64,000 bases of DNA from Eledone cirrhosa (lineage: Eukaryota): NCBI GenBank assembly GCA_964016885.1, contig OZ024762.1, positions 7,316,001 to 7,380,000 on the forward strand, read 5' to 3'. Below, piece by piece: positions 2,378-64,000 of the stretch (position 1 is the stretch's first letter; every line of letters starts with the position of its first letter). The notes under the pieces are model-generated. The model was given only the letters and a program-made list of their open reading frames with translations, made no database searches and was not told where the DNA came from. Made by a program: the position numbers and the translations under genes.

Positions 2378-40703
<38,326 letters not shown>

Positions 40704-43900: not shown

Positions 43901-46371
43901 AACTAAACCTTTTCTATATACACATGTTTTATTTACCGTGGCTTTCTGACACACGATTTCTTTTAAACCAAAAAACTACTCATACGAATAGTGTTACTTC
44001 TTGTAAAGAAACAAAACTAAGCCATCTCGACACTATATACATTTCTAAGAAATATAACTCAAATTTCTCTATAAAACACATTCTGTGTATCAGCTATCTT
44101 TCTTTATTGAATACATTGTAAACCTTGTCAACAATACGTTTTACTATCTACTCTTTTTAGAGACATAAATATAAAACTATTTACTTTCTACTACGAAAAA
44201 TATATTAACCTTCTCTATGCAGGAAAATACCTTTCCTATTTTCTTTTAAGAAACAAAATATGTATAGCTACAGTTGTATTTTTTTCTCCATTTCTTTCAC
44301 AACGAAGCACAGCAGCTTCATTTCTCGCACACGTGTGTGAATAAAAAACGTTAAACACTTGGATTTTACCAATTTTAGATTGATCAGTTATTGAAACATT
44401 TTCTGTATATTTCCCTCCATAATGTTAGAAATAATTATTTAAACGTTAGGTTGTTTTTTTTGCTTCGGCTTAGGGTATGTATGTGCCATAGTATCTCCTG
44501 TGGCCAACTAAGCCCTGGTCATCATAAGCTTAGAGGGTGAAAGAAGCAGTTTTAGGTCATACTTCACATAGCATCTCCTATGGCCACCTAACACCCTGGT
44601 CAATGTCCCATAGTTTCTCCCACGCTAGCATGGGTCGTTTTGCTTATATATATATGTATGTGTGTGCAATTATATTTGTCCATCAATTGTGTATACACAG
44701 TTTGAGGTTGGACCTTCGGAAAGACCTGAAGATTCATCTGTATTGCTGTACGGGTCTGAGACTTGGACACTGACCAAGAGATTCACTCAGATGGTGGATG
44801 GGTGCTAAATATATATATTTATACAAATTTTTCTTTTCCTGAAGTGTGTAGACATTTTTTTTGTATACACACTTATTGGCATTAGCTGTCTCGTTTCTTA
44901 GAAGAAATGAAAAAGCAAAAGTTTGGTTTATTTCACATGTTCGTCGCTAGATAAGGAAGTTTATTTACATTCCTTTGAAGATCTCAGTAATATTTTCCTG
45001 TGTAGAGAAGGTTTAATTCTGTTTCTTAGTAAAAAAGAGAATCAGAAGTATATACGTAAGAGGGCTGACTGACCAAATGGAAAGAAGCAATGCAGTTATT
45101 AGTAAGGAGAGTTGAAATTAATGCATGCAAGATTTCACTGTTCTAGCATCACTCCTTCATAGTCAGCCTATGAGCTTTTCAGTTGACCCTCGTTTGTACA
45201 GAAGAAGGTTTATATAAGTGTAACTTTATGTGTGTGTCTAGAGAAGATTTAGTTTTGTTTATTAGACAAAGAAAGTATGTATATATAAATGTAACAGATA
45301 GAATGCCTTCATTTCAGCTGTCTGAATTCAAATCCCATCAAGGCCAACTTTGCCTTTCATCCATTCAAGGTTGATAAAAAAAAGTACCAGTCTAGTACTG
45401 GGGTGAATTCTTCCTCTACACTTCTCTAGAAGAAATCCGCTGTATTCAGACCTGGGCTCTGCCAGGTTTTAAAAAGAGCCCTAGAAACACTGTATGTCAA
45501 TGCGTTGCCTCTATGACTCCCTCGGGAGTTACGGGTCCATACATATAACTCTCACAGCTTGGAAGTTCTGTATGTAAGTCTTTAAAAACATTTCAGCAGT
45601 ACACTCAGCTGAGGAGTTAATCCTGCGATAGACCAGTGTCCTATCCAGGGAGAGTCTTATACTCTCAGACACTTAATTCCAAAGAAACTGGTGAGAAGCT
45701 GAGAACAGATTTTATATATACTATATTTAGGTTTAATCAATACATATATTGATGATTGGAATCATGGTCTTAAGATTACCCAAATCGATACTAACTATTA
45801 CAAATACAGATCTCTCTAAGGCTATGTTACCTACATATTAATAGTTCTGAAAAGATGCATCAGTCTTCTCCTCTATGGAGCAGAAACGTGGCCCCACACA
45901 AAGTCGATTGACAGCAGAGCCCTGAGGACCAGCTAAATCACAGCCCACAGCCTTACTCTCGTTCAACACAGTAGCACCTGGTAGGCTCTACCCATGATGA
46001 TGCCGGTCTAGATGTACAAAATACTCGAATATAAGGTGATCCTCCTCCCTATCTTATGTCTAAGAAGTGGGCAAAAATGCGAACCTTATTTACGTAGAAT
46101 TTGAAGTTGGCGAAAACGGTCAAACTATTGGATCCCTATATAAGTCAACCCCTTACTACATATTCGTGTATATCCCGTTATATATGTACCAAATACTAGT
46201 AGTTCCTTAATGGCTATATATCCCGTTATATTTATATATAGAGAGAAACGGAAAGAAAACAAGATAACACTCGGAATATGTCGTGTTATCTCGCTTTCTT
46301 TCCGTTTCTTTTTTTTTTAAAAAAGAAGGAAAATGTTAGCTATAAGTATGACTATTTGACTCTGTAGAATT

Positions 46372-46536
46372 GCGGCTTGTGCGTGGCGCTGCACGTAGCG
46401 TTTCTGGCTTCGCTGTCGTACTTCGGTATGGCATGACCACTCGATCGTGTCTGAAGTTCGAATCGTTGCGGGGTCGGCCGGGACCACAGCAGGCTGGCTT
46501 TATGCTGGCCTGCTCTCCCGCCTCGCATGAGTTTTT
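46372..46536 (+). ncRNA. Candidate structured Pol III-type ncRNA, copy 1 (unassigned; vault-RNA-like architecture)
   Basis: TATAAGTA at 46341; 5'/3' terminal stem; cUUCGg hairpin at 46414-46433; B-box-like GTTCGAATC at 46456-46464; T5 at 46532-46536; structure-preserving differences in the other copies. Confidence 0.55.
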
Positions 46537-46549
46537 GCCAAACAATTTG

Positions 46550-46737
46550 ACGAGAGTTATCTCCCTTTGATTTGAGTTATTTGCCCTTTGTTGACATTGA
46601 ACTACTTCCGGTTTGTGGAACTCTTCTTCCTTTGTTGTCATTTCTTTTCAGTGTATTGAAGCTGTAACATTATTCTATTTACTCTGGGACTATTAACGAT
46701 ATCTGTTTGGATTTTACGTTCGTGTAAAGAGGTATGT
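46550..46737 (+). promoter_or_regulatory. Promoter-like module and putative first exon
   Basis: GAGTTATCTCCCTTT and GAGTTATTTGCCCTTT, ETS-like ACTTCCGG, pyrimidine-rich CTCTTCTTCCTTT, donor GAG/GTATGT at 46731/46732 conserved in all copies. Confidence 0.45.
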
Positions 46738-48679
46738 AAAGTTTTATTCACACTCACGGATATTATTGAGACACAAAAATACATTTCACTATCTTGGAAA
46801 TATACATACATTTAATTCTTCAATATAAATACATTCTTGTAGTGTTTTAGTTGCCATGTCTTTTAAATTTATTCTAAACACTCTTCACAGAACTAAACCT
46901 CCTTCCGAGAAACAAAACAAATAATATATACACGCAGCTACCTCTTCTAACTAAACATACATGCTACTTTCCTCCCTATACCTTATACCATCGTAATTTC
47001 TACGTCGAGTTACCTCGGCATCACCACCTTTACTCCAACTCAGCATTCTCTCTTGCACATCATATCAACTATATATTTATATTATAATCGTATCTCTATT
47101 ACACCTTCTCTGTATATACTTACTTAGAAGAAAGGTATATCTCCTCATTATACACAGTATCCGGAGCTATATAAGAAACTGTAGTATATAGAATACAGAC
47201 CCTCTCTCTATACATAAACACACTTCGAAGTATTGTATATATGCAGCATCTATATACACACAAGGCAAAGTTAAAACCCTCTTCTCTACTACTTTTCCCG
47301 AGGATACTTACATAAAACTCTGGATATTTTAATCAAGGCATCTATTTTTTGTACGTAGAGATTCCCCTAACATCTAGAAGACATTATATTCAGTATCCTT
47401 CTCAATAGAAAAAAAAACTCCCCATGTATTATATTACACATACATAGTTTCCTATAGATATGGTATTCCATAGAATACACTCCCTTGTTATACAAACATT
47501 GTACACACGTGTGTATATAATACACAGAAACTTACTACTAGATATTGTGTGTACACAGCAAAGAATCTACTGTTTGTATGTAGAGACTTCTCTGTAACAT
47601 CTAGAAGGCTTATATATTTATTATCCTTCTCAATAATAAAAAAAACCATATATATTATATTATAAATACAGTAATACCTCATCTAGAGGCGTATAAGAAA
47701 CTAAACTGTTCAGGATAAAGAGGTTTGATTTCTGCATCCAGACAATTATTGGTGTTAGAGCTGTGTAATCTGGATTATTTTTATTAATATATTCTGTTTC
47801 TTTCCAGGTATGTTGAAGATCTCCGCCAGCTCACCTCACACAGTCGTCTCAAGAAATAAAATAACTCCAACAACAAAATGTAGTTTATTTATTAATCTTT
47901 ATTTCACTTAGAAGTAAGTATATCCTATAGAACATTGTATTTTATTATATATATACACAGGTAGTATCTTACATGTAGATCGTTTAACTTCCACTCATAA
48001 TATATGTATTTAGATACTGTATATATTTATGTAATTAGTGAGAAACATCCTTCTTGAAAGAAGTGTATATATAGAATAGATTAATTAATGTGTATGTACA
48101 CTATAGAATCCCAGTAAGAAACATCCTTCTTACTGAAAGAGGTAAGTGTGGTGCTATAGAAAAGTTTCTTTGAGAATGGAAACTGTATATATATATAATA
48201 CAGTAATCCTAGCAAGTTTATTTCTTGCTGTGTATATCTCCTGTAAGAGGTTATAATATCTATATATACCTCTCTCATACTTACCAGTAAGTATATAGGA
48301 ATAGAGGTATTAATAAAGAAGTTTCATATTATAAACATTTATAATGTGTATATATACAGTATTCTAGTAAGTTTATTTCCTTCTGTATATAGAATAAATT
48401 TGTATTCTATATCTCTCCCAGTATGTATATAGGAATAGAAGTATGAACTCAGTTCGAAACATCTTTCATGAAAGAAATGTATCTAATGCAGTATTCTAGT
48501 GAGGCCATTTCTTTCTGTATGTATACATATGCCTAGAGATAGAAGGGTGTTAATATGTATGGATTCTATAGAAGTAAGTGTATATATACACATGGTTTTA
48601 AGGTAATAGTATCCTATAGAATACACATACTTATATCTATCTAGAGAAGAAAGTTTAACTCCTTAGCTATATTTATATA

Positions 48680-50087
48680 AACATACATACACACATATAT
48701 GTACATATGTATACATACATACGTATGTGTATATATACACATACATACGTATGTATGTATATGTATATATACATATGTATGTATATATATACTTACGTAT
48801 GTATATACATACATACATAAGTATATATACATACGTATGTATATGTACGTATGCATAAATATACATACGTATGTATACACATGTATGTATATATATACGT
48901 ATGTATACATACATATACATACGTATGTATATATACATACGCATGTATACATACGTATGTATATATATATACGTATGTATGTATATATATACATACGTAT
49001 GCATATATACATACGCATGTATATGTATACATACGTATGTGTACATATACATGCGTATGTATATGTATACATACGTATGTATATATACATACGCATGTAT
49101 ATATACATACGCATGTATATGTATATACGTATCTATACATACGTATGTATATATACATACGCATGTATATGTATACATACGTATGTTTATATATACATAC
49201 GTATGTATATACATACGTATGTGTATATACATATACATACGTATGTGTATATACATATACATACGTATGTGTATATATACATACGTATGTGTATACATAT
49301 GTATGTATATATAAACATACGTATGTATACATATACATACGTATGTATATATACATACGTATGTATACACATACGTATGTTTATATATATATACATACGT
49401 ATGTGTATATATACATACGTATGTATATTTATGCATACACATACATATGTATATATACATACGTACGTATATATATATACATACGTATGCATAAATATAC
49501 ATACGCATGTATATATATACATACGTATGTATATGTACACATGCGTATGTATATATACACATACATATGTATATATACATACGCATGTATATATACATAC
49601 TCATGTATATATACATACTCATGTGTATATACATACGTATGTTTATATATACATACGCATGTTTATGTGTATATATATATACATACGTATGTATACATAT
49701 ACATACGTATGTATATTTATGCATACACATACATACGTATGTATATATACATACGTACGTGTATATATACATACGCATGCATAAATATACATACGCATGT
49801 ATATGTACACATACGTACACATGCGTATGTATATATACACACGTATGTATATATATACACACGTATGTATATATATATATACATATACATACGTATGTGT
49901 ATATATACATACGTATGTGTATACATATGTATGTATATATAAACATACGTATGTATACATATACATGCGTATGTATATATACATACGCATGTATATTTAT
50001 ACATGCGTATGTATATATACACATACGTATGTATATATATACACACGTATGTATATATATACATATATATGTATATACATACACATG
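48680..50087. repeat. 1.4-kb compound purine-pyrimidine microsatellite (TACA/TACG/TATG)
   Basis: Direct inspection; rich in the self-complementary TACATACGTATGTA. Confidence 0.95.
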
Positions 50088-51584
50088 TCTTTAATCCTTA
50101 GCTATATTTATATAATACAGTAGTCTAGAGATATAAGGGTATTAATATGTCTGTAGGTTATTGTCTTTATATCTGTGTAGGGTAACTTCTAAATTTACAA
50201 TGAAGATATGCTTTATATACACAAAAGTGTTTATGTGGAGTATGCCTGTCTAGAGGAGAACACGTATTGATATATCCTTTCAAGAAAAGGGTAACTGTGT
50301 ACATATGGTTCTACATACTGTACTTTATTGAACACAATTTCAATATATAATGAGGTACTTCTTCCAATATAGAGAAGAAGGTATATTATAGACATGAAGT
50401 ACGCTTTGTGTGTCATTGAATGTAAAGAACACTAAATTTCTTTGTATTTATACAGTTAGCTCTCTTGCTTCTTAGGAAGCATGTACACGTTCTACTGTGA
50501 GATGCTTATACGCAACTAGAAGAACAATAGTAGTAGTTTCCTAAGAGACGTATGTGTAGTATCTAGCGAGAATGTATTGATATGTATGTACAGATCAAAA
50601 CCTCTTATCTTATATGTGTATGATGTTCATAAAGAGACACACACAATGTGGGTTTAGATATTTTCTTATATACAGACGTGTCTACTTTTATGTTAATTAC
50701 CTGTATATAGAGATGGTTTGTTTCTAATAGGTGTGTATCTAGGCAATAACATTTCTCCTGTATAGAGGGGATTTATTTATATAATATGAATCTAGTATAC
50801 AGTGACAGGTTTTTGTCTTCCTACAGTGTAAGAGGTGTCTAGTGTGTGTATATATACAGGGAGTAAATAATAAGGCAACAAAGGAAAATACTGGTTTATT
50901 CTTTTATTTCACAATTTATTTACCTTTCTTCTTGAGATAGAGTTGTAGTAGTCTCCAGGTCTGGTCCTTAGGAATATAAAATAGGTTAGTTGTGTATATA
51001 TAAAGATTTAGTTTTGTATCTAGTGAAGAACGTTTATATATGGATGATGTAGCTATCAAGCAGGTGCGGATGCTAGAAGTAGTAGTAAAGAGTCCTACGG
51101 CAGAGTAATGGAGCTACCATGCTTCGTTAGATATGAAATATAACTGTATGGTTTAGCTTCTATATTCATATGTCTAGAGAAGGTTTAGTTTCATGTCTAT
51201 TATTCCAGTATGAACAAGTTTGTATATTGCGCCTCATAAGTATCTGTTATGATAGAAGGGAGACCGTTTATATATGAATATAGCTTCATGTGTACGTATG
51301 TCCCCAGGATTCTTCCTCTACATGGTTTAGAATAAATTTACGGCTAATACATAAATATGCCTGAAGTGTTTGTGTATTTACGTGAAAAAGTGTCTTCTTG
51401 TATATAGAATATCTGTGTGTGTATTCAGGTATAAGGTTTAAAATGTGTATAGAGAGGAAGCTTGGTTATATTTCCTTACAAGTATGTATATAGTATCGAG
51501 AGAAGATTTAGTTGTAACATGTTAGAAGAGGTGTGTATATATACAGATCATGGTTAGTTTTGTTTCATAATAGAGGAGGGTAAC

Positions 51585-52727
51585 ATGTATGTTTAGTTAG
51601 AAGAGGTAGCTGCGTGTATATATTTAGTTTTGTTTCTTTAAAAGACATGGTAACTTACTTTTGTGTCTCAATAATGTGTGTGTATATACGGCAAATAAAA
51701 CTTTACATACCTCTTTACACGAACGTAATATCCAAATATCAGTAATAGTCCCAGAGTAAATAGAATAATGTTGCCGTTTCAATACATTGAAGAGAAATGA
51801 CAACAAAGGAAGAAGAGTTCCACAAACCGGAGGTAGTTCAATGTCAACAAAGGGCAAATAACTCAAATCAAAGGGAGATAACTCTCGTCAAATTGTTTAG
51901 CAAAAACTCATGCGAGGGGAGAGCAGGCCAGCCTGCTGTGGTCCCGGCCGACCCCCGCAACGATTCGAACTTCAGACACGATCGAGTGGTCATGCCATAC
52001 CGAAATACGACAGCGAAGCCAGAAACGCTACGTGCAGCGCCACGCACAAGCCGCAATTCTACAGAGTCAAATAGTCATACTTATAGCTAAACATTTTCCT
52101 TCTTTTTAAAAAAAAAAAGAAACGGAAAGAAAGCGAGATAACACGACATATTCCGAGTGTTATCTCGTTTTCTTTCCGTTTCTCTTTCTATATAAATATA
52201 ACGGGATATATAGCCATTAAGGAACTGCTAGTGTTTTGTACATATATAACGGGATATACACGAATAGAAGCCAGGGAATATGTAGTAAGGGGTTGACTTA
52301 TATAGGGATCCAATAGTTTGACCGTTTTCGCCAACTTCAAATTCTACGTAAATAAGGTTCGCATTTTTGCCCACTTCTTAGACATAAGATAGGGAGGAGG
52401 GTCACCTTATATTCGAGTATTTTGTACATCTAGACCGGCATCATCATGGGTAGAGCCTACCAGGTGCTACTGTGTTTAACGAGAGTAAGGCTGTGGGCTG
52501 ATGTTTTAGATGGTCCTCAGGGCTCTGCTGTCAATCGACTTTGTGAGGGGCCACGTTTCTGCTCTATAGAGGAGAAGACATGCATCTTTTCAGAACAATT
52601 AATATGTAGGTAACATAGCCTTAGAGAGATCTGTATTTCTAATAGTTAGTATCGATTTGGGTAATCTTAAGACCATGATTCCAATCATCAATATATGTAT
52701 TGATTAAACCTAAATATAGTATATAAA
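51585..52727 (-). repeat. Right arm of inverted duplication (partner 45713-46965)
   Basis: Reverse complement match, e.g. 52681-52727 to 45713-45759. Confidence 0.95.
51902..52054 (-). ncRNA. Candidate structured ncRNA, copy 2
   Basis: Reverse complement of copy 1 with an 11-nt deletion in the 3' hairpin and a C>U change at the UUCG closing pair. Confidence 0.5.
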
Positions 52728-53640
52728 GAAGTGGATTTTAGAATATGCAATGATAGTGTCGAGAGAAGGCTTAGTTAGTTCTAACAATGTACCACTATGA
52801 ATAAGACAGAAAGCGGTGTATGTAGATAGAATGTTTAGTTTTCCTGATTATGAAGAGGTTTTAGTTATTATTCTTAGTAAAAAGATGGTTATATTATACA
52901 TATACGTCTCTAACATTCCTCCTGTATATAAAGGGTAGTAAAATATATTCTTGTGTCTCAGGAATAACTACGTGTTTATCGATGAATTTAAGGCTCAACT
53001 AAAACATTACATACCTCTTTAGAAGAATGAAGGTGTATATATAAATGTAGCTTTATATGTGTATATATATCTAGATAGGAAACGTTTCTTCCAGTGTATG
53101 GATTATAGAGGTGAATGCATACACTAAAGAATGTTAATATATATCTAAGACTGTATTTTCGAGTGTTTAGCAATGAATTAAAATATACATAGCAAATAAA
53201 GCGTTCGTATAGGTAAATTAGAGGGTAGTTTACCTCAGCTAAAGAACATTTATGTATATATAAATCTAGTTTTGTGTGTGTATTTAGTTTTAAATAAAAC
53301 AATATGTACGTCTCTAGAATCTTTCTGTATACAGAATAATTGTTTCTACTTTTGGCACAAGGCCAGCAATTATCCAGTGCATTACTGGTACTTTATTTTA
53401 TCGACCCCATAAGGATGAAATGCATATAGAATAATGTATGTCTATGAGTGTATATACGGCAAATAAAACATTACATACCTCTCACCATTAGTATAATATC
53501 CAGACTGATTCTATCAAATTACACGAGTAAATCCAAACAATGTTAACAGTTTAATTCAATAAAGAAGAATGACAACAAACGAGAATAGTTCCAATCAGGG
53601 GCAAGTAATTCAAACGATAACTCTCAGCGAATTTTTTAGT

Positions 53641-53789
53641 AAAATTCAATGCGAGGCGGGGACGCAGGCCAGCATAAAGCCGGGCTGCCGCCGCAACGAT
53701 TCGATCTTCAGACACATAGAATGGTCATGCCATACCGAAGTACGACAGCGAAGCCCGAAACGTTACGTGCAACGCCATGCACAGAGCGC
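53641..53789 (-). ncRNA. Candidate structured ncRNA, copy 3 (diverged)
   Basis: Keeps TATAAGTATGACTA upstream, the UUCG hairpin, the long central stem and a T4 end; lacks one whole hairpin. Confidence 0.5.
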
Positions 53790-53851
53790 AACTCTACTGA
53801 GTAAATTAGTCATACTTATAGTTAGAATTTTATTTATTAAAAAAATATATA

Positions 53852-56309: not shown

Positions 56310-56620
56310 CAGGGACTATAGTAGTAGAGATAGAATAGGCAGAGGGAACGGCATATTTAGGGGCTGGGGAGAGGCAGAGACTACTGTAGTAGAGGTAGAC
56401 AAGGTAGAGAGGGAACGGCATATTTAGGTGCTGGGGAGAAGCAGAGACCACTGTAGTATAGGTAGAGAGGGAACAGCATATTTAGGGGCTGGGGAGTGCT
56501 AGTGAGGAGCAGGAACCAGTGTAGTAGAGGTAGACTAGGAAGAGAGGGAATAGCATATTTAGGGGTTGAGGAGGAGCAGAGACCATTGTAGTAGAGGTAT
56601 AATGTGCAGAAGGAGGAGAG
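56310..56620. repeat. Degenerate ~60-70-bp minisatellite
   Basis: Repeated GTAGTAGAGGTAG...AGAGAGGGAACGGCATATTTAGGGGCTGGGGAG; mirrored at 63800-64000. Confidence 0.8.
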
Positions 56621-58029
56621 ACAATAATTGTGGACCAGAGCCTGTTGAATTGTTGATAAAGCTGGAGTGTCATCCCTTAATGTATCAACCTTGTCAACAT
56701 GAATGTCCTTGGGGGATAAACCCCTTTTCTACAGGTACTTGATAATACCACGATGCCAAATTTTGTCCATTTTCAAGAGGTCATTACTAATTACATTTGA
56801 AGTCCTCTTTCAACAGTCAGATGTCAGTTTACTTGGAAAGAAACAATGCAGTTATTAATAAGAAGGGTTGAAATTAATTCATGCAAGATTTCCCAGCTCT
56901 AGCATCAGTCCTTCATAGTCAGCCAACCTTCGTACTTCTGCTGGGTCAAGCCCGACGGGGGCTGACGTCTTAAACAAGCCCCAACAAATAAGAAAGATTT
57001 AGAAGAGAATATACTACTTCCTAGATATTCACACAAAAGTGACATTAGAATTATTGCTGGAAATAGCAGCCAAATATTTATCGCTCGCCACGTTTTAAAA
57101 TAATGAAGGACACATTAGAAGATGTAGTTTTAGATAGTCATATATACACATATTGGTCAACGCTGGAATCTCATTGATTCTATATACATAAGTCGGTTCT
57201 CAGAGGACCTATTCAGGTTATGGGAACTGTTTGTCCCCCGTGTAAAAATTTGGCGCATAGATATATATAATTTCGAGTATATACTTATATATGTCTGTAT
57301 GCATTTTGTTGGGGTTTAAATGGTGAAAATTTCATAAGGGAGCTGTTGTTTACTTTCATTGACAAGTCAGACCTGAGCGATCAAGACATATATTTACATA
57401 TACATAATCAAAAGTAAAAACATTGTTAATATCTTCCTTCACAGATAAAATATAAAAGATTGTATTTACATGTGTCACAGCTAATTCACCTCCGTAATTC
57501 TTGGGAAACCTGGCTTCTATTTCTAGCAAGTGGAGCGTAGACGTAGAGACGTGTTGCTGTTGTTTACTTTTATTCACAGGTCTTGAACGAGCAAGACAAG
57601 ATGACCCGACATGTGTGTAATCGATGGTATACCTGCCGTGACCATCCTGTGTTTATATGATTATCAAGGTACCCACATCTACATCTTTGAATGCACCTTT
57701 CATTGTTTTAAAAGGGTTGTAGAAGACAGAACATCTGAGGGTGAGAGGCCGGAGATCGTCAGTGAGTGGCTTTAAATTAATTAGCCATGATTCTATGAAA
57801 TAAAGAAGCGAAATCACTTTGAAGAAAAATAGGAGAACAATAGTAATTATTATGAGGCCGGTGTAGCGATTATATATTGCCCTTTGTTTACATTAACCCC
57901 TCCCGACATCATGGTAATTAGATATTCCGACTACAGGGAGGTGTGGGATGGAATGAATTCTTTTATTTATTTACTTATATCAAATAACAAACACGGTGGC
58001 AAGGAGTAAATTAAAAAACTCGCCTTTTT

Positions 58030-58200
58030 ATTTTAAAATAAAATTCAAGCATAACCTCTCCCATGATGCAACAGTGCTGGTAAATGATTTGGCGATTTAG
58101 CGACATCAGTTCCTTAAATTTCACCAGGACGAAATCTCAAGAACGATAACTCTGTCTTTACTTAATCGCAAAAATGGGTGCAAAAATTATTTCGAAACAA
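58030..58200. promoter_or_regulatory. CpG-containing module with a ZNF143/Staf-like site (four copies)
   Basis: CTCCCATGATGCAA plus AACGATAACTC; copies at 59865-60030, 60140-60294 and 62190-62365. Confidence 0.4.
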
Positions 58201-58620
58201 CACTTGCTATAGACGAAAACGGCAATATTAAAAGTATTTTCTGGATTTTTAATAGGTGAACACATCATTATATATATATATTCTACTATATATATATATA
58301 TACATTTATATATATATATACACATATACTCTTTTACCTGTTTCAGCCATCCGGCTGAGGCCATGCTGGGGCACCGCCCTTGTTGCTACACATTTTATCT
58401 CCAGCCTGTATAGGTTGGCCACTGGTGTAAGAGGGAGTTTGTTGCTGCTGCCCTTAGGTTTCCCTCGTGTCTTGCTGTGGGCTCATCCGGGATCCTGGAT
58501 AACAAGGTGTCGAGATGTTTCTTGAAGACATCCACCTCCACGTCATGCAAATCTCTCATGTATATATATATACATGTATATATATATATACATGTATATA
58601 TAACTATATATATATATATA

Positions 58621-59745
58621 TAGCATCACTCCTTCATAGGCTGACCAAGATACTCTCATGGAATGACCAAATGAGGTTTATTTTTCAACATGCAAGATTG
58701 CACAGCCCTAGCATCACTCCTTCATAAGCTGACCAAGATACTCTCATGGAATGATCAAATGAGGTTTATTTTTCAACATACAAGATTTCACAGCTCTAGC
58801 ATCACTCCTTCATAGGCTGACAAAGATACTCTCATGGAATGACCAAATGAGGTTTATTTTTCAACATGCAAGATTGCACAGCTCTAGCTTCACTCCTTCA
58901 TAGGCTGACCAAGATACTCTCATGGAATGACCAAATGAGGTTTATTTTTCAACATGCAAGATTTCACAGCTCTAGCATCACTCCTTCATAGGCTGACCAA
59001 GATACTCTCATGGAATGACCAAATGAGGTTTATTTTTCAACATGCAAGATTGCACAGCTCTAGCTTCACTCCTTCATAGGCTGACCAAGATACTCTCATG
59101 GACTGACCAAGATACTCTCATGGAATGACCAAATGAGGTTTATTTTTCAACATGCAAGATTTCACAGCTCTAGCATCACTCCTTCATAGGCTGACCAAGA
59201 TACTCTCATGGAATGACCAAATGAGGTTTATTTTTCAACATGCAAGATTGCACAGCTCTAGCTTCACTCCTTCATAGGCTGACCAAGATACTCTCATGGA
59301 ATGACCAAATGAGGTTTATTTTTCAACATGCAAGATTTCACAGCTCTAGCATCACTCCTTCATAGGCTGACCAAGATACTCTCATGGAATGACCAAATGA
59401 GGTTTATTTTTCAACATGCAAGATTGCACAGCTCTAGCTTCACTCCTTCATAGGCTGACCAAGATACTCTCATGGAATGACCAAATGAGGTTTATTTTTC
59501 AACATGCAAGATTTCACAGCCCTAGCATCACTCCTTCATAGGCTGAACAAGATACTCTCATGGAATGACCAAATGAGGTTTATTTTTCAACATGCAAGAT
59601 TTCACAGCTCTAGCATCACTCCTTCATAGGCTGACCAAGATACTCTCATGGAATGACCAAATGAGGTTTATTTTTCAACATGCAAGATTTCACACCCTAG
59701 CTCACTCCTTCATAGTGAGCCTATGAACTTTTAAGCCTACCTTCG
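58621..59745 (+). repeat. 88-bp satellite array, 12 full copies plus partials
   Basis: Unit TAGCATCACTCCTTCATAGGCTGACCAAGATACTCTCATGGAATGACCAAATGAGGTTTATTTTTCAACATGCAAGATT(G/T)CACAGCTC. Confidence 0.97.
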
Positions 59746-60313
59746 TATATGTAAACAATGTATTTATTTAATATACAAATAATTACTATTGCTACAGTTA
59801 AAAAATGTACAAAAAAAATTTTTTAATTCAGTTTTTAATTCATGCAACAATTGTGTTAAAGAAATTCGAAATAATTTTTGCACCCATTTTTGCGATTAAG
59901 TAAAGACGGAGTTATCGTTCTTGAGATTTCGGCTCGGAGAAATTTAAGGAACTGATGTCGCTAAATCGCCAAATCATTTACCTGCCCCGTTGCCTCATGG
60001 GAGGGTAATGGCTGCCTTTTATTTTTTAAACGATGGCAGATTCTTTAGTTTCTTTCGCAGCATCTTGTTTCTTGTTTCATATAAGTAAATAATTAAAACA
60101 TTTTGGCGAGAAAGATATTAAAAAGACTGCCATGGTTTTCGAAAAATAAAAGGCACCATTACCCTCCCATGATGCAACGGGAGCAGGTAAATGATTTGGC
60201 GATTTAGCGACGTCAGTTCCTTAAATTTCCCAGAGCCGAAATCTCAAGAACGATAACTCCGTCTTTACTTAATCGCAAAAATGGGTGCAAAAATACTTAC
60301 ATTGTTTGTATAT

Positions 60314-61768
60314 AAGGTAGGCTTAAAAGTTCATAGGCTCACTATGAAAGAGTGATGCTAGGGCTGTGCAATCTTGCATGTGGAAAAATAAACCTCATTT
60401 GGTCCTTCCATGAGAGTATCTTGGTCAGCCTATGAAGGAGTGATGCTAGAGCTGTGCAATCTTGCATGTTGAAAAATAAACCTCATTTGGTCATTCCATG
60501 AGAGTATCTTGGTCAGCCTATGAAGGAGTGATGCTAGAGCTGTGAAATCTTGCATGTTGAAAAATAAACCTCATTTGATCATTCCATGAGAGTATCTTGG
60601 TCAGCCTATGAAGGAGTAATGCTAGAACTGTGAAATCTTGCATGTTGAAAAATAAACCTCATTTGGTCATTCCATGAGAGTATCTTGGTCAGCCTATGAA
60701 GGAGTGGTGCTAGAGCTGTGCAATCTTGCATGTTGAAAAATAAACCTCATTTGGTCATTCCATGAGAGTATCTTGGTCAGCCTATGAAGGAGTGAAGCTA
60801 GAGCTGTGCAATCTTGCATGTTGAAAAATAAACCTCATTTGGTCATTCCATGAGAGTATCTTGGTCAGCCTATGAAGGAGTGATGCTAGAGCTGTGAAAT
60901 CTTGCATGTTGAAAAATAAACCTCATTTGGTCATTCCATGAGTGTATCTTGGTCAGCCTATGAAGGAGTGAAGCTAGAGCTGTGCAATCTTGCATGTTGA
61001 AAAATAAACCTCATTTGGTCATTCCATGAGAGTATCTTGGTCAGCCTATGAAGGAGTGATGCTAGAGCTGTGAAATCTTGCATGTTGAAAAATAAACCTC
61101 ATTTGGTCATTCCATGAGAGTATCTTGGTCAGCCTATGAAGGAGTGAAGCTAGAGCTGTGCAATCTTGCATGTTGAAAAATAAACCTCATTTGGTCATTC
61201 CATGAGAGTATCTTGGTCAGCCTATGAAGGAGTGATGCTAGAGCTGTGAAATCTTGCATGTTGAAAAATAAACCTCATTTGGTCATTCCATGAGAGTATC
61301 TTGGTCAGCCTATGAAGGAGTGAAGCTAGAGCTGTGCAATCTTGCATGTTGAAAAATAAACCTCATTTGGTCATTCCATGAGAGTATCTTGGTCAGCCTA
61401 TGAAGGAGTGATGCTAGAGCTGTGAAATCTTGCATGTTGAAAAATAAACCTCATTTGGTCATTCCATGAGAGTATCTTGGTCAGCCTATGAAGGAGTGAA
61501 GCTAGAGCTGTGCAATCTTGCATGTTGAAAAATAAACCTCATTTGGTCATTCCATGAGAGTATCTTTGTCAGCCTATGAAGGAGTGATGCTAGAGCTGTG
61601 AAATCTTGTATGTTGAAAAATAAATCTCATTTGATCATTCCATGAGAGTATCTTGGTCAGCTTATGAAGGAGTGATGCTAGGGCTGTGCAATCTTGCATG
61701 TTGAAAAATAAACCTCATTTGGTCATTCCATGAGAGTATCTTGGTCAGCCTATGAAGGAGTGATGCTA
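60314..61768 (-). repeat. 88-bp satellite array, ~16 copies, inverted
   Basis: Reverse complement of the 58621-59745 unit. Confidence 0.97.
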
Positions 61769-64000
61769 TATATATATATATAGTTATATATACATGTATA
61801 TATATATATACATGTATATATATATACATGAGAGATTTGCAGGACGTGGAGGTGGATGTCTTCAAGAAACATCTCGACACCTTGTTATCCAGGATCCCGG
61901 ATGAGCCCACAGCAAGACACGAGGGAAACCTAAGGGCAGCAGCAACAAACTCCCTCTTACACCAGTGGCCAACCTATACAGGCTGGAGATAAAATGTGTA
62001 GCAACAAGGGCGGTGCCCCAGCATGGCCTCAGCCGGATGGCTGAAACAGGTAAAAGAGTATATGTGTATATATATATATAAATGTATATATATATATATA
62101 TAGTAGAATATATATATATAATGATGTGTTCACCTATTAAAAATCCAGAAAATACTTTTAATATTGCCGTTTTCGTCTATAGCAAGTGTTGTTTCGAAAT
62201 AATTTTTGCACCCATTTTTGCGATTAAGTAAAGACAGAGTTATCGTTCTTGAGATTTCGTCCTGGTGAAATTTAAGGAACTGATGTCGCTAAATCGCCAA
62301 ATCATTTACCAGCACTGTTGCATCATGGGAGAGGTTATGCTTGAATTTTATTTTAAAATAAAAAGGCGAGTTTTTTAATTTACTCCTTGCCACCGTGTTT
62401 GTTATTTGATATAAGTAAATAAATAAAAGAATTCATTCCATCCCACACCTCCCTGTAGTCGGAATATCTAATTACCATGATGTCGGGAGGGGTTAATGTA
62501 AACAAAGGGCAATATATAATCGCTACACCGGCCTCATAATAATTACTATTGTTCTCCTAATTTTTCTTCAAAGTGATTTCGCTTCTTTATTTCATAGAAT
62601 CATGGCTAATTAATTTAAAGCCACTCACTGACGATCTCCGGCCTCTCACCCTCAGATGTTCTGTCTTCTACAACCCCTTTTAAAACAATGAAAGGTGCAT
62701 TCAAAGATGTAGATGTGGGTACCTTGATAATCATATAAACACAGGATGGTCACGGCAGGTATACCATCGATTACACACATGTCGAGTCATCTTGTCTTGC
62801 TCGTTCAAGACCTGTGAATAAAAGTAAACAACAGCAACATGTCTCTACGTCTACGCTCCACTTGCTAGAAATAGAAGCCAGGTTTCCCAAGAATTACGGA
62901 GGTGAATTAGCTGTGACACATGTAAATACAATCTTTTATATTTTATCTGTGTAGGAAGATATTAATAATGTTATTACTTTTGATTATGTATATGTAAATA
63001 TATGTCTTGATCGCTCAGGTCTGACTTGTCGATGAAAGTAAACAACAGCTACCTTATGAAATTTTCACAATTTAAACCCCAACAAAATGCATACAGACAT
63101 ATATAAGTGTATATATATATATATACTCGAAATTATATATATATATATACACGCGAAATTTTTGCACGGGGGACAAACAGTTCCCATAACCTGAATAGGT
63201 CCTCTGAGAACCGACTTATGTATATAGAATCAATGAGATACCAGCGTTGACCAATGTGTATATATGACTATCTAAAACTACATCTTCTAATGTGTCCTTC
63301 ATTATTTTAAAACGTGGCGAGCGATAAATATTTGGCTGCTATTTCCAGCAATAATTCTAATGTCACTTTTGTGTGAATATCTAGGAAGTAGTATATTCCC
63401 TTCTAAATCTTTCTTATTTGTTGGGGCTTGTTTAAGACGTCAGCCCCCGTCGGGCTTGACCCAGCAGAAGTACGAAGGTTGGCTGACTATGAAGGACTGA
63501 TGCTAGAGCTGGGAAATCTTGCATGAATTAATTTCAACCCTTCTTATTAATAACTGCATTGTTTCTTTCCAAGTAAACTGACATCTGACTGTTGAAAGAG
63601 GACTTCAAATGTAATTAGTAATGACCTCTTGAAAATGGACAAAATTTGGCATCGTGGTATTATCAAGTACCTGTAGAAAAGGGGTTTATCCCCCAAGAAC
63701 ATTCATGTTGACAAGGTTGATACATTAAAGGATGATACTCCAGCTTTATCAACAATTCAACAGGCTCTGGTCCACAATTATTGTCTCTCCTCCTTCTGCA
63801 CATTATACCTCTACTACAATGGTCTCTGCTCCTCCACAGCCCTTAAATATGCTGTTCCCTCTCTACCTCTACTACAATGGTCTCTGCTCCTCCCCAACCC
63901 CTAAATATGCTATTCCCTCTCTTCCTAGTCTACCTCTACTACACTGGTTCCTGCTCCTCACTAGCACTCCCCAGCCCCTAAATATGCTGTTTCCTCTCTA

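What the first reader, a model, noticed from the sequence alone, without database searches (positions are those of the whole stretch)
46341..46536. Three-copy, covarying ~160-nt structured RNA gene candidate (TATA, B-box-like motif, T-run) with vault-RNA-like architecture
Seen in sequence: a GC/CpG-rich island in very AT-rich DNA, present three times (46372-46536 +, 51902-52054 -, 53641-53789 -). Each starts ~31 nt after a conserved TATAAGTATGACTA and ends in T4-5. Hand folding of copy 1 gives: a terminal stem CUUGUGCG-U-GGCG/CGCC-U-CGCAUGAG closing right at the T-run; a long stem GUAGCG-U-UUCUGGCUUC/GAAGUUCGAA-U-CGUUGC; an 8-bp cUUCGg hairpin UGUCGUAC-UUCG-GUAUGGCA; hairpins CAC/GUG and GGUC/GACC; and a 10-bp GCAGGCUGGC/GCUGGCCUGC hairpin. 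Most changes in diverged copy 3 preserve pairing (G-U to A-U and U.C to G-C in the long stem, CAC/GUG to CAU/AUG, U-G to C-G), and its deletion removes exactly the GGUC..GACC hairpin. Copy 3 also gains a few mismatches and has a weaker terminal stem. Copy 2's deletion trims only a hairpin tip. Established knowledge: vault RNAs are Pol III transcripts with an upstream TATA, paired ends, a B box that pairs with the segment after the A box, and small clusters; they are characterised mainly in deuterostomes. Inference: the order AGCG..CTTCG / TGTCTG..GTTCGA..GCGGG / GCTCTCC..TTTT parallels human vtRNA as I recall it. This could be a cephalopod vault RNA or an undescribed Pol III ncRNA. The A box is weak and copy 3 has GATCGAATC at the B box.
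Basis: partly seen in the sequence, partly recalled or inferred. Interest (0 to 1): 0.82.

Follow-up and report, generated by a model that had tools for sequence, protein, structure and literature searches.

The report
Octopus vault-like small RNA gene cluster
Next to a transcription-factor gene in what is likely an octopus genome lie three copies of a conserved ~160-base sequence, predicted to fold strongly, that matches no Rfam family and is likely a small RNA made by RNA polymerase III, built like a vault RNA but lacking that family's signature motif; its expression is untested.

Summary
The three copies are real. Each starts 31 nt after an identical TATA 14-mer, carries a B-box core and ends at its only T4-5 run. 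Copies 1 and 3 fold better than shuffles (z -4.1, -3.0), much less so on the opposite strand (-1.7, -0.8). The RNA diverged less than its 3' flank between copies 1 and 3 (13% vs 35%, p 1e-5) and against a contig from another species (0/191 vs 4/85, p 0.009). Two other species gave one contig each over the RNA, so it is not an abundant SINE. Rfam finds nothing.

'Covarying' is overstated: 5 of 11 affected pairs are kept, 6 break. Copy 2 is a young duplicate that looks decayed. The layout is vault-like, but the vault signature (A box joined to TTACTTCG) and its pairing register are not met; likeness to human vtRNA1-1 is marginal (P 0.007-0.06 in copy 1, chance level in copy 3). Vault RNAs are already catalogued in a limpet and a leech.

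Verdict: likely an undescribed octopod Pol III small-RNA gene family that works like vault RNA; membership and expression unproven. Interest 0.55.

The parts
46341..46354 (+). Copy 1 TATA-containing 14-mer, starting at -31
   Evidence: exact in all three copies; TATA-to-start region 28/32 identical to copy 3 against 17/30 in the spacer upstream
46372..46536 (+). Copy 1, predicted 165-nt RNA: terminal stem, long imperfect stem capped by two hairpins, 3' hairpin, U-tail
   Evidence: MFE -76.5, z -4.09, 14 G-U pairs of 63; opposite strand z -1.74
46384..46394 (+). Possible A box at +13, weak (6 of 9 consensus positions, counted by eye); an alternative at 46405-46415 scores 7 of 9 in copies 1 and 2 and is not among the best matches in copy 3
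   Evidence: the best A-box score in copy 1 is at chance level (P 0.93)
46456..46464 (+). B-box core GTTCGAATC at +85 (GATCGAATC in copy 3)
   Evidence: the strict core occurs 21 times on both strands of the 64 kb; against the looser 11-nt consensus the match is 8/10, P 0.29
46532..46536 (+). T5 run closing the terminal stem; predicted Pol III terminator
   Evidence: only T4+ run in the copy
51902..52054 (-). Copy 2, 153 nt; young duplicate of copy 1, likely decaying
   Evidence: z -0.67
52072..52085 (-). Copy 2 TATA 14-mer
53641..53789 (-). Copy 3, 149 nt; older paralogue, 15-nt deletion, T4 end, two two-sided changes in the terminal stem
   Evidence: z -2.97 against -0.84 on the opposite strand
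53807..53820 (-). Copy 3 TATA 14-mer
45715..46781 (+). Duplicated segment carrying copy 1 (inverted partner 52725-51656, 93% identity)
46728..46746 (+). Conserved splice-donor-like 19-mer downstream of each copy (also 51696-51714, 53464-53482 and 53000-53018, all minus strand); role unknown
   Evidence: 4 exact matches, 0.13 expected; alignment
46244..46309 (+). 66-nt palindrome upstream, likely a MITE remnant older than the duplications; not part of the RNA
   Evidence: z -7.9; its left arm collects several contigs with loose ends in runs X2, X5 and X7

Best explanation
This is a low-copy cluster of conserved sequences, predicted to fold strongly, that are likely RNA polymerase III genes for a 150-165-nt RNA that would work like a vault RNA, as a paired-end scaffold bound by protein. 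Inferred steps: TFIIIC binds the internal B box; TFIIIB is placed by the strong TATA box, which makes up for the poor A box; Pol III starts 31 nt downstream and stops at the T4-5 run. The 5' and 3' ends pair into a terminal helix with a free U-tail. By analogy with vault and Y RNAs (established knowledge, untested here), La would bind the tail and a TROVE-domain protein, TEP1 or Ro60, the terminal helix. The invariant long stem with its two hairpins corresponds to the vault central domain; the 3' region is an extension that tolerates deletions. Shown: copies, motifs, spacing, conservation above the flank, few contigs in two other species. Predicted: the fold. Not shown: transcription, ends, partner. 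I put about 0.78 on 'functional Pol III gene' and about 0.35 on 'true homologue of vault RNA'.
For: Promoter and terminator layout in all three copies, with no internal T4. Folding is strand-specific and rich in G-U pairs, as expected of an RNA and not of a DNA palindrome. Copy 1 vs copy 3: 20 of 149 sites differ in the RNA against 62 of 179 in the 3' flank, p 1e-5. Organism B contig: 0 substitutions in 191 nt of TATA plus RNA, 4 in 85 nt of flank, p 0.009. Organism C contig: 4 substitutions, 3 keep a pair as G-U and 1 is unpaired; P 0.085. Two two-sided changes in the terminal stem, P 0.04. Vault RNAs have type-2 boxes, a TATA-like box, paired ends and a variable centre (passages of PMC7058938, PMC11185573) and reach about 190 nt in Leishmania (PMC9326685). 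Six collinear exact blocks (38 nt) are shared with human vtRNA1-1 as printed in PMC10087102, counted by eye; P 0.007-0.06. MVP genes exist in the mollusc Aplysia (PMC9334734).
Against: No expression evidence. No Rfam match, vault included, at E<=10. The A box is at chance level. The signature seen in mouse, human and Fasciola (GG followed by TTACTTCG) is absent; the nearest match needs a 2-nt gap (P 0.08 copy 1, 0.44 copy 2, 0.03 copy 3 against the mouse motif; 0.47-0.98 against the fluke motif). The vault-type registers cost 1.5-10.9 kcal/mol in copy 1 and 15-16 in copy 3. Copy 3 shares only 18 nt of such blocks with the human RNA (by eye), below the null mean of 21-25. Six of 11 pairs break in copy 3. 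The organism B contig lacks G46520, which removes a pair of the inner terminal helix; organism C changes the last C of the B-box core (one contig, depth 5). MVP and TEP1 were not checked in octopus.
Confidence: 0.5

Rival explanations
1. A functional Pol III RNA peculiar to octopods and unrelated to vault RNA, arisen from a tRNA-, 7SL- or SINE-type promoter as BC1, 4.5S and snaR did in mammals. Its long imperfect duplex would act as a decoy or ligand for double-stranded-RNA-binding proteins, as adenovirus VA RNA and EBERs do.
For: All the Pol III evidence above. The vault signature and register are not met. No Rfam match. The B-box core has the form of a tRNA T-loop. The first 30 nt resemble the SRP Alu 5' domain (recalled, from no call).
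Against: No tRNA fold (ARAGORN 0). The SRP-like 5' hairpin has probability about 0 and costs 6 kcal/mol in copy 1, and no SRP model matched. The paired-end layout, the small cluster and the collinear blocks with vtRNA1-1 lean towards vault.
Confidence: 0.3
2. The TATA box drives Pol II, and the structured part is the 5' end of a first exon of about 330-360 nt of a spliced long non-coding RNA ending at the conserved donor-like site.
For: A donor-like 19-mer is exact downstream of all three copies while the flank around it is about 60% identical. Copy 1 has a possible acceptor near 47806 with AATAAA about 50 nt behind it. CpG-rich island.
Against: The strong conservation stops at the T-run that closes the terminal stem. 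A B-box core is present. The acceptor region has no homologue near copies 2 or 3. A fourth donor-like site has no RNA copy of its own.
Confidence: 0.1
3. An inert GC-rich relic (SINE head or dead gene) copied passively in local duplications.
For: The copies sit in larger duplicated segments that include flanks and a MITE remnant. Covariation is marginal. Copy 2 looks decayed. No expression data.
Against: The RNA and TATA are conserved well above the flank in two comparisons. CpG is retained. Organisms B and C give one contig each over the RNA while the adjacent palindrome arm collects at least five in B. No poly-A or simple-repeat tail follows the T-run.
Confidence: 0.1

Closest known systems
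Vault RNA (Rfam RF00006; human vtRNA1-1; Lottia, Helobdella, Macrostomum and Fasciola candidates)
   Same: TATA-like box near -30, internal B box, paired 5' and 3' ends, a long stem capped by two hairpins, U-run end, small local cluster; short collinear blocks shared with human vtRNA1-1.
   Different: No A box joined to TTACTTCG; the B box pairs in another register; about 40 extra nt with a hairpin before the 3' strand of the terminal stem; no Rfam score; neighbour is SPT5, not ZMAT2/protocadherin (a vertebrate trait).
Trypanosomatid vault RNAs (seen only through the review PMC9326685)
   Same: Long (up to about 190 nt) Pol III RNAs recognised only from structure, short terminal motifs and TEP1 binding: a precedent for a divergent member.
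   Different: They were assigned by TEP1 co-precipitation, which is missing here; I could not see their bulged-helix motif.
Lineage-specific type-2 Pol III RNAs (rodent 4.5SH/4.5SI, BC1, snaR) and viral VA/EBER RNAs
   Same: Weak A box offset by a -31/-24 TATA-like box (shown for 4.5SH in PMC7279448); VA and EBER are of similar length with a terminal stem (recalled).
   Different: No tRNA or 7SL body is detectable here; no sequence relation shown.
tRNA-derived SINEs of cephalopods (recalled)
   Same: Internal B box, GC-rich head.
   Different: Conserved external TATA and flanks, a terminator in place of a tail, few copies, no dispersed copies in the window.

Membership tests
Vault RNA | Scores against Rfam RF00006 | tested here: not met
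   no match at gathering score or at E<=10 on copies 1 and 3
Vault RNA | A box directly followed by TTACTTCG | tested here: not met
   7 of 8 letters match at 46418-46425 in copies 1 and 3, inside a UUCG hairpin and not joined to a GG-ending A box; P 0.03-0.44 against the mouse motif, 0.47-0.98 against the fluke motif
Vault RNA | Internal B box | tested here: met
   core at +85 in copies 1 and 2, T>A variant in copy 3
Vault RNA | Internal A box | tested here: inconclusive
   best 7 of 9, P 0.93; the Fasciola candidates' A boxes are also degenerate
Vault RNA | Paired 5' and 3' ends followed by a U-run | tested here: met
   pair probabilities 0.99-1.0 in copy 1; two two-sided changes in copy 3
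Vault RNA | CUUCG pairs with the B-box core and the A-box 3' half pairs with the segment after the B box | tested here: not met
   probability <=0.0002 for the first; 0.12 in copy 1 and about 0 in copies 2 and 3 for the second; reference structure from PMC10087102
Vault RNA | Length 80-150 nt (about 190 in Leishmania) | tested here: inconclusive
   predicted 149-165 nt; ends not measured
Vault RNA | Binds TEP1 / co-purifies with vaults | not testable with these tools
   needs a pull-down
Vault RNA | Host encodes MVP and TEP1 | not tested
   no genome held; MVP reported in Aplysia (PMC9334734)
Pol III type-2 gene | TATA-like box near -30, B box, T4+ terminator, no internal T4 | tested here: met
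Pol III type-2 gene | Transcribed by Pol III | not testable with these tools
   no run on record as RNA was listed
Pol III type-3 gene (U6, 7SK, Y) | Conserved proximal element at about -65 to -48 | tested here: not met
   46310-46339 is 43% diverged between copies 1 and 3; no Rfam match
SINE | Many dispersed copies with unrelated flanks and a tail | tested here: not met
   flanks homologous; one contig each in organisms B and C; a whole-genome count was not possible
tRNA or tRNA-derived RNA | Cloverleaf or T-arm | tested here: not met
   ARAGORN 0; the T-loop-like motif has no T-stem in the predicted fold
SRP/7SL-derived RNA | Alu-domain fold | tested here: not met
   no Rfam match; the candidate 5' hairpin has probability about 0

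The most novel reading that the evidence does not exclude
An octopod-specific class of Pol III RNA, unrelated to vault, Y or 7SL RNA, whose invariant 77-nt imperfect duplex acts as a built-in decoy or tuner for double-stranded-RNA-binding proteins such as ADAR, in animals known for extensive A-to-I recoding.
Probability: 0.15. Interest if true: 0.85.

Novelty: new variant of a known kind. Interest (0 to 1): 0.55.

Why it matters
If it is the octopus vault RNA, it would show that the family can lose its one universal motif and so escape Rfam, and it gives a seed for finding hidden vault RNAs in other invertebrates. If it is not, it is an uncatalogued Pol III RNA of a lineage whose small-RNA genes have hardly been surveyed. 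Either way one blot and one TEP1 pull-down would decide. The compact TATA-plus-B-box unit might also serve as a native promoter for guide RNAs in cephalopods.

Tried and rejected
No whole genome is held, so genome copy number, a canonical vault RNA elsewhere, and MVP/TEP1 could not be checked.

Run search: no RNA holder listed. Run X2 is of unrecorded kind and covers all 30 bins including flanks, so I did not use it as expression evidence. Organism D (X7) had no cover over the RNA at 80% likeness; this shows nothing either way. 4 of the 11 listed runs were laid.

Metagenome pattern scan: 11 of 11 loci are chance matches in GC-rich contigs dense with long bacterial-type ORFs; the model scores them at most 19 bits against 152 for copy 2, which was not in the model. 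A 22-nt core motif found 0 in viral contigs and 0 in prokaryotic genomes.

Coding: two ORFs over copy 1 have no Pfam match. Sigma-70 scan irrelevant. SRP-Alu-like 5' hairpin rejected on energy. An alternative helix in copy 3 that would explain three substitutions costs 8 kcal/mol. In one search my hand-written structure misplaced the 4-bp inner terminal helix by one column, so I rely for it; its shuffle control is uninformative with two sequences (123 of 500). In one search the threshold entered for copy 3 (24) was too high; the by-eye value is 18. The joint motif test (null 0.0004) was designed after seeing the sequence and is not counted as independent support. A direct alignment to whole published vault RNA sequences was not run; that comparison is by eye.

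Earlier findings of the scan: nothing on this sequence or genome.

Full report
OBSERVATION. The three copies are at the stated places, and a model built from copies 1 and 3 finds no fourth in the window. All start 31 nt after an identical TATA 14-mer, hold a B-box core at about +85, and have a single T4+ run, at the end. Copy 1 folds at -76.5 kcal/mol (z -4.09), copy 3 at -60 (z -2.97), copy 2 at -59 (z -0.67). The opposite strands of copies 1 and 3 give z -1.74 and -0.84, and 14 of the 63 pairs in copy 1 are G-U. The fold therefore belongs to the strand that the TATA box and T-run predict.

CONTEXT. The cluster lies about 5.6 kb past the last recognised coding exon of an SPT5 gene (Pfam domains in four exons). 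That exon's only database hit is Octopus vulgaris SPT5-like at 74%, so the host is likely an octopod. Copies 1 and 2 are parts of a 1.07-kb inverted duplication at 93% identity; copy 3 is an older duplicate, about 70% over 470 nt. A palindromic MITE-like remnant lies upstream.

SELECTION. Between copies 1 and 3, 13% of sites differ in the RNA (10% in its first 100 nt) and 12.5% in the TATA-to-start region, against 43% in the spacer upstream and 35% in the 3' flank (p 1e-5). Public runs from three organisms hold the stretch (6 of 11 rows, 3 studies). In organism B one 275-nt contig has no substitution in 191 nt of TATA plus RNA and four in 85 nt of flank (p 0.009); it has three gap letters, one of which removes G46520. 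Those four flank changes also occur in a contig of organism A, so the B contig is probably the counterpart of another paralogue or allele, not of copy 1. In organism C one 151-nt contig covers 46376-46519 with four substitutions and two gap letters that were not shown; none of the substitutions breaks a predicted pair (P 0.085). One contig each in B and C, against at least five on the neighbouring palindrome arm in B, argues against an abundant SINE, though contig depth is not a copy number. Run X2 shows two flank types absent from the window, so the family may have four or five members.

COVARIATION. Of 11 scorable pairs hit by the 20 substitutions of copy 3, five are kept and six broken, no better than random placement (P 0.21). 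The two two-sided changes sit side by side in the terminal stem (P 0.04). Copy 2 has two deletions, an insertion and a substitution and looks decayed.

IS IT A VAULT RNA? Rfam gives no match at gathering score on the window, nor a vault or SRP match at E<=10 on copies 1 and 3. The layout agrees with vault genes as described in PMC7058938 and PMC11185573 (passages): type-2 boxes, TATA-like box, paired ends, variable centre, small cluster. The human structure in PMC10087102 (passage) has the same outline of terminal helix, long stem and two-hairpin cap. By eye, copy 1 shares six collinear exact blocks totalling 38 nt with vtRNA1-1; random sequences with a fixed B box reach this in 0.7-6% of 1200 trials, and copy 3 (18 nt) is at chance. 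The signature that holds from mammals to flukes, an A box ending in GG followed by TTACTTCG, is absent, and the vault pairing register is disfavoured, strongly so in copy 3. I therefore do not file it as a member. Vault RNAs are already listed for Lottia, Helobdella and Macrostomum and predicted in Fasciola (PMC8824774: passages and Table S9; its figure PDF was unreadable; also PMC2770079, passages), so a cephalopod member would extend a known family.

MECHANISM. Most likely TFIIIC binds the B box, the strong TATA box positions TFIIIB despite the poor A box (as shown for 4.5SH RNA in PMC7279448, passages), and Pol III makes a 150-165-nt RNA whose ends pair. By analogy with vault and Y RNAs, La would cap the U-tail and a TROVE protein would bind the terminal helix; the trypanosome vault RNAs, up to about 190 nt, were recognised in this way (PMC9326685, passage). 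All of this is inference; no transcript was seen. I put 0.5 on this reading, 0.3 on an unrelated octopod Pol III RNA, 0.1 on a Pol II first exon (a donor-like 19-mer is conserved 163-196 nt behind each T-run) and 0.1 on an inert relic.

LITERATURE. Ten full-text searches listed no paper that, by title and abstract, describes an octopus vault RNA or this element; 'vault RNA' with 'octopus' listed one unrelated review. Stadler 2009 was seen only as cited by others; Kolev 2019 and the invertebrate 7SK paper were not held. Their alignments and supplements may include cephalopod candidates. Also seen as passages only: PMC550661, PMC7904556, PMC9334734, PMC12992080, PMC13465034.

VERDICT. A real, conserved, low-copy, uncatalogued Pol III-type RNA gene family of octopods, vault-like in build; membership and expression unproven. 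New variant of a known kind; interest 0.55.

Noticed in passing
window 46728-46746 (+), 51696-51714, 53464-53482, 53000-53018 (-): An exact 19-nt splice-donor-like motif in four places, three of them 163-196 nt behind the T-runs, conserved far above its flanks (0.13 expected by chance). The fourth has no RNA copy of its own.
   Followed up: partly
window 46244-46309; arms near 54039-54012 and 53879-53852: MITE-like element: arms adjacent as a palindrome before copies 1 and 2, about 130 nt apart before copy 3 (by eye); its left arm recurs in contigs of organisms B and D.
   Followed up: partly
window about 2500-40703 (+): SPT5 gene spread over roughly 38 kb; its last coding exon is only 74% identical to Octopus vulgaris SPT5-like, which seems low for this conserved protein.
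   Followed up: partly
window 56530-63875: A 7.3-kb inverted repeat at 97-99% complementarity whose inner arms are arrays of an 88-nt unit (foldback-like element).
   Followed up: no
window 19034-20393 and 32693-34048: Two arrays of 48-nt period inside SPT5 introns that keep long open frames of repetitive peptide; probably minisatellites.
   Followed up: no
window 46492-46502: An 11-nt stretch in the 3' hairpin of copy 1 is identical to the 5' end of human vtRNA1 as printed in PMC10087102, but out of order with the other shared blocks; likely chance.
   Followed up: partly
run X2 on window 46513-46748: Two contigs with 27 and 13 differences match none of the three window copies, suggesting further paralogues or divergent alleles in organism A.
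   Followed up: partly
window 48600-50100: A 1.5-kb TA/CA-rich microsatellite separates the convergent copies 1 and 2.
   Followed up: no
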